From sequence record OK272486.1: 50,987 bases of DNA; one strand, written 5' to 3'. Positions 12,680 to 50,882 of this stretch are shown one piece after another. The notes below the pieces were generated by a model. The model had not been told where the DNA came from and did no database searches. It was given only the letters and a program-made list of their open reading frames with translations. The translations under genes were made by a program, and so were the position numbers. Origin of the DNA: Escherichia phage JLBYU10. Numbering within the stretch: the first letter of the stretch is position 1; the number at the start of each line of letters is the position of its first letter.

Positions 12680-12721
12680 TTTCCACCTCATTTAAAAGGC
12701 GGCAAAACGCCGCCAGATTAA

Positions 12722-47887: not shown

Positions 47888-47919
47888 ACAAAAAGCCCCG
47901 CATATGCGGGGCTTTTTTT
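47888..47919. terminator. bidirectional rho-independent terminator
   Basis: GCCCCGCAT-ATGCGGGGC stem flanked by A-run and T-run between convergent genes. Confidence 0.6.
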
Positions 47920-48322
47920 AGTCTAACGTGGTTGGTTTGTTTACCAGTGCCGCTACAACCGCTTTTAGCTCGTCAATTTCTTTTCTCATCTCATCGTTTT
48001 CCGCTTTCAGTTTCTTAACGTGGTGAATCAGTGGAACAGTGAGGCGGTCATACATAACGCCTTCCGCCACCATGCCATTACTTGAAGCAATGGCAGGATC
48101 TTCTCCTTCTTGCAGCGGCCGCCAGTGAACGTACTCCGGCGCAATTTCTCCAACCTCTTCCGCGATTAGCCCGTACCATCCCCAATCTTTACGGTCGCTT
48201 TCACAGGTTGACCGATACCACACAGGACGCATTTCAAGCATCAGATCCGCATATTCATCAATAACCGATTCTACGCTGCGCTTATAACGAGAAGAGGAAG
48301 TGGAGCGTAAAACTTGCGACAC
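47918..48322 (-). CDS. peptidase S74-like intramolecular chaperone domain protein (possibly C-terminal part of a split tail-fibre gene)
   Basis: SDRKDW...YGLIAEEVGEIAPEYV...coiled-coil tail, resembling tail-fibre auto-cleaving chaperone domains; frame open upstream of annotated start. Confidence 0.4.
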   Translation of the reverse strand: MSQVLRSTSSSRYKRSVESVIDEYADLMLEMRPVWYRSTCESDRKDWGWYGLIAEEVGEIAPEYVHWRPLQEGEDPAIASSNGMVAEGVMYDRLTVPLIHHVKKLKAENDEMRKEIDELKAVVAALVNKPTTLD

Positions 48323-48615
48323 TCCAGCATTTGGATCAAGCCATAAGTTTGCTGATTGAGCGGGGTTGTGTTTAGTCTAAACAAATAAAATGCCTCGTTA
48401 CCAGTCAGGGGGTAAAAATTGCCACCATACCTTCCGCTATCCAACTCGGACGATAGATCATTTTGTTTTAGATACGGTTTCAACTTATTGTCAACATCAG
48501 CAGTTGATGCTTTTCCGGCAACATCCTGTTTTAGTGTCGAAACATCCTGTTTTATCGTAGAAACATCATTTTTCAGCTTCGTTATATCACTAGGTATAAC
48601 AGTGACTGTAGCCAT
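48271..48615 (-). CDS. tail-fibre-like coiled-coil protein fragment
   Basis: ORF track; heptad-like KLKNDVSTIKQDVSTLKQDV; overlaps next ORF out of frame by ~50 bp. Confidence 0.3.
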   Translation of the reverse strand: MATVTVIPSDITKLKNDVSTIKQDVSTLKQDVAGKASTADVDNKLKPYLKQNDLSSELDSGRYGGNFYPLTGNEAFYLFRLNTTPLNQQTYGLIQMLECRKFYAPLPLLVISAA

Positions 48616-48627
48616 TTTCCTAACTCC

Positions 48628-48906
48628 TTAAGCCCATTCTCTAATCGGCTGATCTAACTCAACCACGTAGCCGTTAAAAATTACGGCATCAAACTTATCA
48701 TCAATGATTCGCACATTGACGAAATAGCCGTCGTTCTTTCGCGCAATCTCATCGCCATCGTCAGATCGTGCAATTACTGTGTAAGTATTGCCGATTACAT
48801 CGAGCAGGATTGCATCCTGAATGGATTCGTTTTCGTTCCATTCAATTTCTTCCAGAAAGGCGGAAAACTCCGCCTTGTCTAAAAATTTCAGTGTTAAATC
48901 ACGCAT
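48628..48906 (-). CDS. hypothetical protein (tail-fibre accessory?)
   Basis: ORF 48628..48951 trimmed to ATG overlapping stop of tail-fibre gene. Confidence 0.4.
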   Translation of the reverse strand: MRDLTLKFLDKAEFSAFLEEIEWNENESIQDAILLDVIGNTYTVIARSDDGDEIARKNDGYFVNVRIIDDKFDAVIFNGYVVELDQPIREWA

Positions 48907-50882
48907 TATACAATTTCCCCCAATTGATGATCTGTTAGTGCCTTGTGCCATATACGGAAGTTTCTAACGTGCCCGAAAAGATGGCGTTCGCCCGTAGTTG
49001 TTTGTCCGCCAATCCTTATAGTAGCCGTTGATTTTATGTATCTCCATTCCGTTTTTGTTTCGCTTGATATTCTGGCATTACTTACACAGCAATTATTGTA
49101 ATCACTCTTTACTCTCATTCCCATGATCATCTTTTTTAGTTTTGCATTCTCGTAAACCCTTCTTTTTGATCCACCTATATCGCAATAAGGGAATCCATCA
49201 TTATCTCCCTCGGCAGATCCGAAAGCAAGAATAATTGCCGCACCAGATTGATGACCTACAGTATCAAAAACACGAGGCGCAGCATTTGGCGTTATACTCC
49301 AGTTTTTATTAGCTTCCACAAGAACTGTAAACGGCAAATTGTAAAGGTTGTTTTTTATTGGCACTGTAACCATATCGCTTGCCCTTGTTACTGGATTTTC
49401 TTCTGTAATTATGAAAGAAGAGGCACAAGATCCTCCCTCAACTTGTGGAGTTGCAATATAAATGTAATCATCCGCGCCAGTGCCCACTCCTTTTGCCGGG
49501 GCATACTGAACCATTCCACCTATCATATTTTCTGTATCAAGTGCCTTAATTGTCGCCTCAAAAAAGATCCATTTGCTTGCTTCATCTTTAACAGCCCTTG
49601 CAGTAATACGATTTGCAGCGACGCCAGTTTTTTCAATTGATAAATCTGTCAGATTTACGTAAGCATCACCCAAAAATGCATAAGCAGATCCATCGTAGTT
49701 TTCAAATCGTAATCGGCATCTTAAATTTGGAGTCCCACTTTGCGCCCTGCATGATATGGTTACATACTTTTCATTTCCTGTTACATCAAAACCTCTACTG
49801 CCGGAAACGGTTACTATGTTAATCTCTGAAATTTGCCCTACCATTTCTGGTTTTAATGTAAATTTTGCGTACTGGAATCCGAAATTATCCACACCTGATC
49901 TATCTAAGATCATATTTGATGACTTGTTCCATTTTGAAGGATTGACGCTATTTATAAGAAGGTTTGTTCTTTGCCCCTCAATGAGCAGACCATCCTTTTC
50001 AAATCTAGGTTCATCAATAGCAGCATTAGTAAGCACCCCAGACTTATTAATGTAAGTAGCGGTTGATGCGCGTTTAAACTTAACAATCTTGTCACCTGGC
50101 ATCGTGATCTCATCGTCACCTATAACAATCTTTTTATATGACGGAGAGAATCCGGTGATCATATCCAGGGAATCATTAAACGGTATCCACACGTCCGGCA
50201 ACGGTTGCAATAAATCTTTGTAAGGTTCTGCGGCCTGCTTTGCGTATTCCTCCGCTTGATCTCGCGCACTTTCAGCTCCTGCCTTTGCAGTGTTCGCAGC
50301 GTCACGCGCGGATTCAGCGCCTTTTCTTGCAGTTTCAGCGCCAGTCTTTGCAGTGTTTGCAGCGTCGCGCGCGGATTCAGCGGCAGCCTTTGCAGTGTCA
50401 GCACCTTTCTTGCTATTCTCTGCATTTGTTGCGCTTGTCTTTGCGTTATTCTCGCTAGTTTTAGCTGCCTTCTGGCTTGCTGCGGCTGCGTCAGCATTTG
50501 TCTTTACGTCTTCCTGGATCTTCTGTAGCTTATCCCAATCAAAATCCTTGATGATCTCAATAAATCCAGCAAGCTCCGACTCCTTTCCCTGGTAATAACG
50601 CAACGTTTCCGCTACGTCTTGCGCAAGACCGTCAACCGTTAACGAGTCATGAAGCAAGATCAGGTAATTTGTCTTCTGGACTACCGCGCCGCCAGTAGTA
50701 ATTGCGCGAATGCTTGTATCGCTAATCACTTCCGTAATCACAGCAGCTTGCAAAGGTTGAGCAAGAAAGAAAATAGTTGCACCTGGGCGAATCAAGGTTA
50801 ATTGCTCACGCCATTTTGTACCGTAACCAGTTACATAACCTTGCGCGTCCATAGACGCTTGGCCTTGTCTGTAAATCGCCAT
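48906..50882 (-). CDS. side tail fibre protein
   Basis: ORF 48906..50906 trimmed to ATG with AGGAGGA RBS; Ala-rich repeats AAESARDAANTAKTGAETARKGAESARDAANTAKAGAESARD typical of fibre shafts. Confidence 0.55.
   Translation of the reverse strand: MAIYRQGQASMDAQGYVTGYGTKWREQLTLIRPGATIFFLAQPLQAAVITEVISDTSIRAITTGGAVVQKTNYLILLHDSLTVDGLAQDVAETLRYYQGKESELAGFIEIIKDFDWDKLQKIQEDVKTNADAAAASQKAAKTSENNAKTSATNAENSKKGADTAKAAAESARDAANTAKTGAETARKGAESARDAANTAKAGAESARDQAEEYAKQAAEPYKDLLQPLPDVWIPFNDSLDMITGFSPSYKKIVIGDDEITMPGDKIVKFKRASTATYINKSGVLTNAAIDEPRFEKDGLLIEGQRTNLLINSVNPSKWNKSSNMILDRSGVDNFGFQYAKFTLKPEMVGQISEINIVTVSGSRGFDVTGNEKYVTISCRAQSGTPNLRCRLRFENYDGSAYAFLGDAYVNLTDLSIEKTGVAANRITARAVKDEASKWIFFEATIKALDTENMIGGMVQYAPAKGVGTGADDYIYIATPQVEGGSCASSFIITEENPVTRASDMVTVPIKNNLYNLPFTVLVEANKNWSITPNAAPRVFDTVGHQSGAAIILAFGSAEGDNDGFPYCDIGGSKRRVYENAKLKKMIMGMRVKSDYNNCCVSNARISSETKTEWRYIKSTATIRIGGQTTTGERHLFGHVRNFRIWHKALTDHQLGEIV

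What the first reader, a model, noticed from the sequence alone, without database searches (positions are those of the whole stretch)
47918..48615. Split or frameshifted tail-fibre gene with a peptidase-S74-like chaperone domain
ORF 47918..48322 carries features of the auto-cleaving intramolecular chaperone domain found at the C-terminus of tail fibres and tailspikes (SDRKDW, YGLIAEEVGEIAPEYV, terminal coiled coil), but lacks a fibre body. The upstream ORF 48271..48615 has fibre-like heptads and overlaps it by ~50 bp in a different frame; the chaperone frame is open well upstream of its annotated start. This suggests one gene interrupted by a frameshift (programmed, mutational or a sequencing error in a G-run near 48361-48365), or a chaperone acting in trans on the 658-aa fibre upstream.
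Basis: partly seen in the sequence, partly recalled or inferred. Interest (0 to 1): 0.55.

Follow-up and report, generated by a model that had tools for sequence, protein, structure and literature searches.

The report
Frameshift-broken short tail-fibre gene
The two overlapping ORFs are one 231-codon accessory tail-fibre gene of a T1-like coliphage, broken by a two-base insertion. This is an ordinary loss-of-function lesion, though the same gene is broken in other ways in about 40% of sequenced relatives.

Summary
Window 47918-48615 (- strand) is one gene split into two overlapping ORFs. The window is a Warwickvirus (Drexlerviridae, T1-like) coliphage. In its closest relatives the same stretch is a single CDS of 224-245 aa. 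It has an N-terminal heptad coiled coil, a short distal domain and a C-terminal Peptidase_S74 intramolecular-chaperone domain with a Ser/Lys dyad.

Removing the two bases restores a 231-aa protein. There is no slippery heptamer and no downstream structure, and no relative shares the insertion, so a programmed frameshift is very unlikely. A sequencing error cannot be excluded without reads.

The unexpected part is that 14 of 35 related phages carry a lesion in this gene. There are 10 different lesions (frameshifts and nonsense codons), one per copy. The neighbouring 658-aa fibre gene and 92-aa gene are full length in all 23 relatives whose annotation was inspected. Intact copies show purifying selection (pN/pS 0.23).

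Best reading: a dispensable short fibre that carries its own chaperone and is recurrently inactivated, in the manner of the stf frameshift of lambda PaPa. It is not a chaperone acting in trans. Interest is low to moderate.

The parts
47918..48615 (-). Whole short-fibre gene (698 nt, which is 696 + 2). It encodes a 231-aa protein once the +CC is removed. It is the orthologue of tunus CDS0031, XY3 'chaperone of endosialidase' and Bas05 gp29 'putative lateral tail fiber chaperone'.
   Evidence: Alignment to relatives; reconstruction; annotations
48362..48365 (-). CCCC run (GGGG on the + strand). All aligned relatives have CC here. This +2 insertion is the frameshift lesion.
48366..48615 (-). Authentic N-terminal coding part: conserved N-terminal peptide MATVTVIPSDITKLK, heptad coiled coil and the start of the distal domain. 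The remainder of ORF 48271-48615 downstream of the run is out-of-frame read-through.
   Evidence: PHROG N-terminal matches
47921..48298 (-). Peptidase_S74 intramolecular-chaperone domain. The predicted nucleophile Ser codon is 48296-48298 and the Lys codon at +5 is 48281-48283. The C-terminal coiled-coil helix follows; the stop codon is 47918-47920.
   Evidence: Pfam; PDB profile alignment to 8hqz_d; AF2 and Foldseek; coordinates
48408..48412 (-). C5 run, intact in the window. It is expanded to C6 (frameshift) in AV105, orkinos and JLBYU19, so it is a recurrent lesion site.
47895..47912 (.). GC-rich hairpin GCCCCGCATATGCGGGGC flanked by A/T runs. It is a conserved bidirectional terminator between the SSB gene (+) and the fibre gene (-).
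   Evidence: Read from the sequence; conserved in all relatives. The consensus scanner did not list it.
48628..48906 (-). 92-aa gene of unknown function (phrog_1361). It always lies between the large fibre gene and the S74 gene, also in E. coli prophages.
48906..50882 (-). 658-aa lateral tail-fibre gene (phrog_1419). It is full length in the window and in every annotated relative.
   Evidence: relatives' annotations

Best explanation
The two ORFs are one gene for a short accessory tail-fibre protein. It is the last gene of the three-gene lateral-fibre cassette: 658-aa fibre, 92-aa protein, then this gene. The intact product would be 231 aa. It has a conserved N-terminal docking peptide, a heptad coiled-coil stalk, a small distal domain and a C-terminal S74 intramolecular chaperone. 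That chaperone is expected to drive trimer folding in cis and then cut itself off at the conserved Ser. The cis action and the cleavage are inferred from the family, not shown here. In this genome a non-programmed +CC insertion at 48362-48365 shifts the frame after codon 84. The stalk is then followed by about 30 nonsense residues and the chaperone domain is not translated, so the allele is most likely null. Shown: single-gene status, the site and nature of the lesion, the S74 fold and dyad, and recurrent independent lesions in relatives. Inferred: the protein is a virion fibre component, its loss is tolerated or favoured during plaque isolation and propagation, and the insertion is a real mutation rather than an assembly error (roughly 3:1 in my estimate).
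For: Relatives have one CDS of 675-738 nt at this position. Alignments show a 42-nt in-frame repeat difference plus a +CC unique to the window. Removing CC gives a 231-aa ORF colinear with the 231-aa isoform of relatives. S74 membership rests on Pfam at or above its cut-off. It also rests on a profile hit to the DT57C L-shaped fibre 8hqz_d, which aligns TSSxRYK to TSGIEYK. AF2 pLDDT is above 90 and Foldseek hits ICA/IMC domains. The protein matches positions 1147-1384 of the 1385-position phrog_3299, which is the C-terminal end of long fibres elsewhere. The lesion map shows 14 of 35 phages disrupted by 10 distinct lesions, one per copy, some recurring on different haplotypes. Control: of 77-82 comparable annotated CDS between the window, orkinos and Phunderstruck, this gene is the only true disruption. 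The large fibre gene and the 92-aa gene are full length in all 23 relatives whose annotation was inspected. If lesions fell at random in the cassette, all 10 landing in this gene has P about 8e-7. Intact copies have pN/pS 0.23, and 0.16 over the S74 part. Literature: lateral fibres of Drexlerviridae are thought dispensable on K-12 (PMC8594841). A lateral-fibre deletion in the Drexlerviridae phage Bas13 gave a general fitness gain (bioRxiv 10.1101/2023.05.21.541620). Lambda with side fibres rapidly yields large-plaque stf frameshift mutants (PMC2762979).
Against: No reads are available, so a CC to CCCC homopolymer error in this assembly cannot be excluded. No virion proteomics or structure shows that the protein is part of the particle; the swan01 proteomics supplement gave no hit for its locus tags. 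Disruption is not associated with K-12 isolation hosts (7/16 against 6/18, P 0.73), so a K-12-specific relaxation is not demonstrated. Only 4 complete uncultivated copies were found (all intact), too few to separate laboratory selection from natural polymorphism. Why lesions spare the large fibre gene is unexplained.
Confidence: 0.8

Rival explanations
1. Sequencing or assembly error: the phage has CC and an intact 231-aa gene, and the extra two C's were introduced by homopolymer miscalling or polishing.
For: The change is an expansion of a C run and is unique to this genome. The rest of the gene carries no second lesion and every conserved S74 residue is intact. The window also differs from relatives by one A in an A-run in an intergenic spacer.
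Against: A two-base change in a run of only two is not a typical homopolymer error. The same gene is broken in 13 other independently sequenced phages, five of them by base substitutions to stop codons, which are not homopolymer artefacts. No other gene of the window is disrupted relative to two complete relatives.
Confidence: 0.2
2. Programmed -1 ribosomal frameshift: ribosomes slip on C CCC G so that full-length protein, with one extra Pro, is made from the split gene as a regulated minor product.
For: A -1 slip of tRNA-Pro from CCG to CCC at this run would re-enter the correct frame and give ...NTTPAQSANLW... (read from the sequence). Some low-level spontaneous slippage is therefore conceivable.
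Against: There is no X XXY YYZ heptamer. The 89 nt downstream fold no better than shuffles (z -0.65). None of the 34 relatives has the CCCC run. Relatives that are split are split at nine other positions, including stop codons inside the S74 domain. Most relatives encode the protein in one frame.
Confidence: 0.03
3. Two functional genes: the downstream ORF is a free-standing S74 chaperone that folds the 658-aa fibre (or the upstream stalk protein) in trans.
For: Some database records name the orthologue 'putative lateral tail fiber chaperone' or 'chaperone of endosialidase'. The gene always lies downstream of a large fibre gene, also in prophages.
Against: Orthologues are single CDSs with their own conserved N-terminal stalk. 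The residues just upstream of the cleavage Ser are among the most conserved in the family, as expected for a cis substrate. Elsewhere the same sequence is the C-terminal end of long fibres (phrog_3299). The GTG of the downstream ORF has GGAG only about 1 nt upstream, a poor spacing. If it served the large fibre, lesions should also hit that 2.7-fold larger gene, yet none of the 23 relatives inspected has one. To my knowledge S74 domains are known to act only in cis.
Confidence: 0.04

Closest known systems
Lambda PaPa stf frameshift (Hendrix & Duda 1992, cited from my own knowledge and from PMC11990801 ref. 132; experimental re-evolution in Gallet et al. 2009, PMC2762979)
   Same: A single-site frameshift splits a side-fibre gene into two ORFs in a laboratory-propagated siphophage. 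Loss-of-function alleles arise repeatedly and at clustered sites. In lambda the fibre is dispensable on K-12 and its loss gives larger plaques.
   Different: Here the broken gene is not the large fibre gene but a small S74-bearing gene downstream of it. The phenotype of loss is untested. The phages are virulent T1-like phages. Lesions are seen across many independent environmental isolates rather than in one laboratory lineage.
Fibres with a C-terminal S74 intramolecular chaperone: T5 pb1, DT57C LtfA (PDB 8hqz), K1F endosialidase (3gw6), GA-1 neck appendage (3gud)
   Same: C-terminal PF13884 domain with a Ser and a Lys at +5, a predicted ICA/IMC fold and a terminal coiled-coil helix. It lies at the C-terminus of a protein with a coiled-coil or fibre N-terminal part.
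   Different: The fibre body is very short: about 105-119 residues before the cleavage site, against about 900-1260. Autocleavage and trimerisation are not demonstrated for this protein.
Two-component or branched lateral fibres: DT57C LtfA/LtfB (PMC4728585, PMC10713586) and BASEL 'T-shaped' distal fibres docking on proximal fibres (PMC11990801)
   Same: There is a separate fibre protein carrying its own receptor-binding tip and IMC, encoded next to a larger fibre protein. Its conserved N-terminus is shared between otherwise different fibre proteins (phrog_4563 and phrog_19752, residues 1-26).
   Different: No evidence here shows that the small protein docks on the 658-aa fibre. The 658-aa protein has its own C-terminal lectin-like end (weak Laminin_G_3 hit).
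GenBank orthologues: Bas05 PeterMerian gp29 'putative lateral tail fiber chaperone', XY3/JK16/Jahat 'chaperone of endosialidase', and the E. coli prophage 'tail fiber domain-containing protein' (227-234 aa)
   Same: The same gene family and the same cassette position.
   Different: Those copies are intact. The window allele is frameshifted. The 'chaperone' names describe the domain, not a tested trans function.

Membership tests
Peptidase_S74 / intramolecular chaperone (IMC) fibre proteins | Match to Pfam PF13884 at or above the gathering score | tested here: met
   22.7 bits against a cut-off of 22 for the window frame, and 22.5 for the intact homologue P0001. 50 of 54 aligned family members match, best E 7e-11. 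The score for this clade is marginal.
Peptidase_S74 / intramolecular chaperone (IMC) fibre proteins | Catalytic Ser with a Lys five residues downstream at the start of the domain | tested here: met
   STSSSRYK: Ser120 and Lys125 in 245-aa numbering, codons 48296-48298 and 48281-48283. T119 and K125 are invariant and S120 is at least 90% conserved in 54 sequences. The motif aligns to TSGIEYK of 8hqz_d, and Pfam profile position 1 falls on Ser120.
Peptidase_S74 / intramolecular chaperone (IMC) fibre proteins | IMC/ICA fold ending in a long C-terminal helix | tested here: met
   AF2 pLDDT is above 90 for residues about 125-240, with helix 202-238. Foldseek hits are 7dc3 MyRF ICA (E 2e-5, prob 1.00) and, more weakly, 3gw6 and 3gud.
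Peptidase_S74 / intramolecular chaperone (IMC) fibre proteins | Domain sits at the C-terminus of a trimeric fibre or spike that it folds in cis | tested here: inconclusive
   A coiled-coil N-terminal part precedes it in the same polypeptide in all intact orthologues. The trimeric state and the cis dependence are not testable with these tools.
Peptidase_S74 / intramolecular chaperone (IMC) fibre proteins | Autoproteolytic release of the domain after folding | not testable with these tools
   Needs protein biochemistry or virion mass spectrometry.
Programmed -1 ribosomal frameshift site | Slippery heptamer X XXY YYZ at the frame junction | tested here: not met
   The junction reads A ACC CCG C. 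Only a C4 run is present.
Programmed -1 ribosomal frameshift site | Stable stimulatory structure 5-9 nt downstream | tested here: not met
   MFE -19.4 kcal/mol against shuffles -17.6 +/- 2.8, z -0.65.
Programmed -1 ribosomal frameshift site | Two-frame arrangement conserved in relatives | tested here: not met
   None of the 23 aligned relatives, nor the 11 others judged from match length and annotation, has the +CC. Most have a single ORF.
Domestication-type loss of side fibres (lambda PaPa-like) | Loss-of-function lesions arise repeatedly and independently in a fibre gene of propagated isolates | tested here: met
   10 distinct lesions in 14 of 35 phages, one per copy. The +C and TAC>TAA lesions recur on different haplotypes. 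The effect is gene-specific.
Domestication-type loss of side fibres (lambda PaPa-like) | Loss gives a growth or plaque-size advantage under laboratory conditions | not testable with these tools
   There is only analogy: lambda stf (PMC2762979) and the Bas13 lateral-fibre deletion (bioRxiv 10.1101/2023.05.21.541620). No association with a K-12 isolation host was found (P 0.73).

The most novel reading that the evidence does not exclude
The small S74 fibre gene of Warwickvirus phages is a preferred target of loss-of-function mutation. About 40% of isolates carry independent null alleles while the adjacent large fibre gene is never hit. This would reflect either strong selection during plaque isolation (a general 'domestication signature' of T1-like phages, comparable to lambda PaPa) or a natural on/off polymorphism of an accessory receptor-binding fibre. 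In either case the genome sequences of many 'wild' isolates would misreport the natural adsorption apparatus.
Probability: 0.45. Interest if true: 0.5.

Novelty: new member of a known kind. Interest (0 to 1): 0.3.

Why it matters
For this window the practical consequence is annotation. The two ORFs should be one frameshifted (pseudo)gene for a short tail fibre with an intramolecular chaperone, not two hypothetical proteins or a free 'chaperone'.

More broadly, the recurrent and gene-specific inactivation suggests that isolating and propagating T1-like coliphages, or some natural process, routinely removes an accessory fibre. This matters for host-range prediction from genomes, for phage-therapy candidates (several affected phages were isolated on clinical or ECOR strains) and for comparative studies that treat isolates as wild type. 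It also gives a simple natural experiment, matched intact and null alleles, for finding out what these very short S74 fibres do.

Tried and rejected
1. Programmed frameshift: no heptamer, no structure and no conservation, so rejected.

2. Trans-chaperone reading: rejected on gene architecture and on the lesion distribution. It was not tested biochemically.

3. K-12-specific relaxation: disrupted and intact alleles are equally frequent among phages isolated on K-12 and on other hosts, so it is not supported.

4. A genome-wide control with raw longest ORFs was too noisy because of start-codon extensions and spurious ORFs. It was replaced by annotated CDS of two relatives. The one extra 'disruption' in the window turned out to be an A-run difference in an RBS spacer under a mis-annotated start.

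6. Virion proteomics of swan01 (PMC6563131): its locus tags were not found in the held supplements.

7. Uncultivated relatives: only four complete copies were found in IMG/VR and metagenomes, all intact. That is too few to compare allele frequencies.

8. Prophage copies in E. coli genomes: a spread sample shows no internal length changes, but stop codons could not be checked.

9. The consensus terminator scan missed the obvious hairpin at 47895-47912. It was read directly from the sequence.

Full report
WHAT IS THERE

These are 48271-48615 (114 aa, ATG) and 47918-48322 (134 aa, GTG), with 52 nt of overlap in different frames. The downstream frame is open for a further 18 codons, up to 48376.

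It matches Pfam Peptidase_S74 just above the curated cut-off (22.7 against 22 bits). The upstream ORF gives only coiled-coil type hits.

WHERE THE WINDOW COMES FROM

The 3.3 kb around the finding is 95-99% identical to Escherichia phages of the genus Warwickvirus (Drexlerviridae, Tempevirinae; T1-like). The best match is phage tunus OR912983 at 98.8%.

The local gene order is as follows. On the + strand lie the exonuclease, Erf and SSB genes. Converging on the - strand lie the primase gene, the 658-aa lateral tail-fibre gene, a 92-aa gene and then the gene under study. A conserved hairpin terminator (47895-47912) sits between the two convergent units.

ONE GENE, AND THE LESION

In tunus, XY3, SLUR29, Tuinin, swan01, JK16, PeterMerian (Bas05), MatMar, BEBK14, Jahat, JLBYU16, tinuso, G3B1, WaterSpirit and BabyEgg the same stretch is a single CDS of 675, 696 or 738 nt, that is 224, 231 or 245 aa. 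The three lengths differ by in-frame 42- or 63-nt copy-number changes in an N-terminal heptad/21-residue repeat.

Against these relatives the window shows the 42-nt repeat difference, so it is the 231-aa type. It also has two extra C's: AACACAACCGCT in all 23 aligned relatives is AACACAACCCCGCT in the window. Deleting two C's gives a 696-nt ORF encoding a 231-aa protein colinear with the relatives.

WHAT THE PROTEIN IS

The intact protein has four parts:
- a conserved N-terminal peptide (MATVTVIPSDITKLK);
- a heptad coiled coil;
- a roughly 60-residue distal segment whose last part (TTAxxANLxLD...LRST) is among the most conserved stretches of the family;
- the S74 domain, which starts at STSSSRYK.

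In an alignment of 54 family members T119, K125 and the YGLIAEE core are invariant, and S120 is at least 90% conserved. 50 of the 54 match PF13884, with profile position 1 on Ser120.

A profile of the family finds the L-shaped tail-fibre protein of the T5-like phage DT57C (8hqz_d, E 8e-7). The alignment places TSSxRYK on TSGIEYK, which gives the Ser and the Lys at +5 typical of these autoproteolytic chaperones.

An AlphaFold2 model of the 97%-identical intact homologue P0001 is confident over the S74 part (pLDDT above 90). It is poor over the N-terminal part, as expected for a monomer model of a trimeric fibre. Foldseek places the model with the MyRF ICA domain (7dc3, E 2e-5) and, more weakly, with the endosialidase and GA-1 intramolecular chaperones (3gw6, 3gud).

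PHROG comparison is informative. The protein matches positions 1147-1384 of the 1385-position family phrog_3299, so in other phages the same sequence is the C-terminal end of a long fibre. Its first 26 residues also match the N-termini of other tail-fibre families (phrog_4563, phrog_19752).

The same cassette (large fibre, 89-aa protein, 227-aa S74 protein) occurs in E. coli prophages. The prophage version of the gene is present in 742 of 5426 complete E. coli genomes. Related small S74 genes lie in the lateral-fibre loci of other coliphage isolates of differing genome size (51-109 kb; for example KarlJaspers, KurtStettler and Salmonella phage HMD-P4), where they are annotated 'putative lateral tail fiber chaperone'.

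I read all this as a short fibre protein with its own cis-acting chaperone. It probably forms part of a multi-component lateral fibre, as in DT57C LtfA/LtfB or the BASEL 'T-shaped' fibres that dock on proximal fibres (PMC4728585; PMC11990801). I do not read it as a free chaperone. Trimerisation, autocleavage and presence in the virion are inferred, not shown.

IS THE FRAMESHIFT PROGRAMMED?

No. There is no X XXY YYZ heptamer. The 89 nt downstream fold no better than shuffled sequences (z -0.65). None of the 34 relatives has the CCCC run.

A spontaneous -1 slip of tRNA-Pro on C CCC G would re-enter the right frame with one extra proline. A trace of full-length protein is therefore conceivable, but nothing suggests that it is an evolved feature.

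THE UNEXPECTED PATTERN

While collecting relatives I found that the gene is broken in many of them, and each time differently. Positions refer to the 738-nt tunus gene.

| Phage(s) | Lesion |
|---|---|
| KMB46 | -13 nt at nt 73 |
| brachmannus | -1 A in an A4 run, at nt ~188 of the 738-nt reference |
| AV105, orkinos, JLBYU19 | +C in a C5 run at nt 245 (window 48408-48412) |
| this window | +CC at nt 292 |
| ityhuna | -1 G at nt 437 |
| Phunderstruck | GGA>TGA, codon 159 |
| tuinn | GAG>TAG, codon 167 |
| EC195, JLBYU07 (and EC125, inferred from hit statistics and annotation identical to EC195) | TAC>TAA, codon 175 |
| JLBYU01 | GAA>TAA, codon 219 |
| SECphi27 | -1 A at nt 690 |

That makes 14 of 35 distinct phages with 10 distinct lesions, and exactly one lesion per copy. 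The nearest relatives of the three +C phages, and of the two sequenced TAC>TAA phages (EC195, JLBYU07), lack the lesion, so these are recurrences on different haplotypes. Five further records were scored intact only from annotation and equal match length.

SPECIFICITY AND SELECTION

I used the annotated CDS of two complete relatives that carry lesions (orkinos, Phunderstruck) and compared them with each other and with the window. Between 77 and 82 CDS are comparable per pair, and this gene is the only real disruption.

The few other flags are start-codon artefacts. One is an A-run difference in an RBS spacer under a mis-annotated start.

The 658-aa fibre gene and the 92-aa gene are annotated full length in all 23 relatives whose annotation was inspected. 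If lesions fell at random in the three-gene cassette, all ten distinct ones landing in this gene has probability about 8e-7.

Intact copies evolve under purifying selection: pN/pS is 0.23 overall and 0.16 in the S74 part. The gene is therefore functional in the long run, and the null alleles are recent.

Four complete uncultivated copies (IMG/VR and a metagenome) are all intact, but four is too few to conclude anything. A spread sample of prophage copies in E. coli genomes shows no internal length changes, against 8 of 35 frameshifted copies among the virulent isolates (P 0.0016). The prophage gene is only about 54% identical at the protein level, and stop codons could not be checked there.

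Disruption is not associated with isolation on K-12 (7/16 against 6/18, P 0.73).

INTERPRETATION OF THE PATTERN

The closest known phenomenon is the stf frameshift of lambda PaPa. Lambda carrying side fibres makes smaller plaques and quickly yields large-plaque mutants; 19 of 21 such mutants had a mutated stf gene, 15 by frameshift, with clustered sites (PMC2762979).

For Drexlerviridae, the BASEL authors consider the lateral fibres non-essential for host recognition, by analogy with T5-like phages on O-antigen-less K-12 strains (PMC8594841). A lateral-fibre deletion in the Drexlerviridae phage Bas13 out-competed wild type with or without CBASS (bioRxiv 10.1101/2023.05.21.541620).

A similar advantage, or at least tolerance, of losing the small S74 fibre during plaque isolation and propagation is the most economical explanation. 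It is an inference. Why the lesions spare the 2.7-fold larger fibre gene is unexplained. That asymmetry argues that the two proteins are not functionally equivalent, and it argues against the small protein being merely the large fibre's chaperone.

REAL MUTATION OR ERROR IN THIS WINDOW?

This cannot be settled without reads.

In favour of an error:
- the change is an expansion of a C run;
- it is unique to this genome;
- there is no secondary decay in the gene.

In favour of a real mutation:
- two bases were added to a run of only two;
- the window has no other broken gene;
- the same gene is knocked out in 13 other genomes, five of them by substitutions that are not homopolymer artefacts.

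I put the odds at roughly 3:1 for a real mutation.

VERDICT

The feature is a frameshifted allele of a known kind of gene: a short tail fibre with a C-terminal S74 intramolecular chaperone. It is not a programmed frameshift and not a split chaperone system. On its own it is ordinary.

The recurrent, gene-specific inactivation across Warwickvirus isolates is a modestly interesting by-product. I did not find it described in the papers I searched, though those searches were limited.

Noticed in passing
window ~48520-48600 (-); relatives L001-L023: The N-terminal heptad/21-residue repeat of the short-fibre gene varies in copy number among relatives through in-frame 42- or 63-nt indels. This gives 224-, 231- and 245-aa isoforms, so stalk length is polymorphic. 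The window is the 231-aa type.
   Followed up: partly
window 48408-48412 (-); L004, L006, L008: A C5 run, intact in the window, is expanded to C6 in three relatives on three different haplotypes (AV105, orkinos, JLBYU19). Likewise TAC>TAA at codon 175 occurs on two haplotypes (EC195, JLBYU07). These look like recurrent hot spots or recombinational spread of null alleles.
   Followed up: partly
[not shown]
   Followed up: partly
L027 1-3244 (E. coli GCA_001647315.1 contig LRHQ01000038.1); E. coli genome search: The same three-gene fibre cassette (at least 659 aa, 89 aa, 227-aa S74 protein) sits at the end of an E. coli prophage next to a DinI gene and an integrase, with a Dus-family gene just beyond. 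The prophage S74 gene is present in 742 of 5426 complete E. coli genomes, including E. coli B derivatives.
   Followed up: partly
window ~12680-12683 (-); L030 33206-33379: The window has A4 where relatives have A3, in the spacer between a Shine-Dalgarno sequence (GAGGTGG) and the ATG of a roughly 40-codon hydrophobic ORF. Phunderstruck gp47 is annotated from an upstream ATG that runs through a terminator-like hairpin, which is probably a mis-annotated start.
   Followed up: yes
window 47895-47912: The perfect hairpin GCCCCGCATATGCGGGGC is flanked by an A-run and a T-run between the convergent SSB gene and the short-fibre gene. It is conserved in all relatives and is likely a bidirectional terminator. 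The consensus terminator scanner did not report it.
   Followed up: partly
window 48906-50882 (-), about residues 140-225 of the 658-aa fibre: The large lateral-fibre protein has an alanine-rich repetitive segment (AKTSENNAKTSATNAENSKKGADTAKAAAESARDAANTAKTGAETARKG...). Some relatives annotate a repeat_region there. Many relatives align over only about 85% of the 3.3-kb query, which suggests a variable block in this gene.
   Followed up: no
L033 (ON711395.1, phage brachmannus): This record, labelled UNVERIFIED and unannotated, carries a -1 frameshift in an A4 run of the same short-fibre gene. It may be a real lesion or a sign of lower sequence quality in that record.
   Followed up: partly
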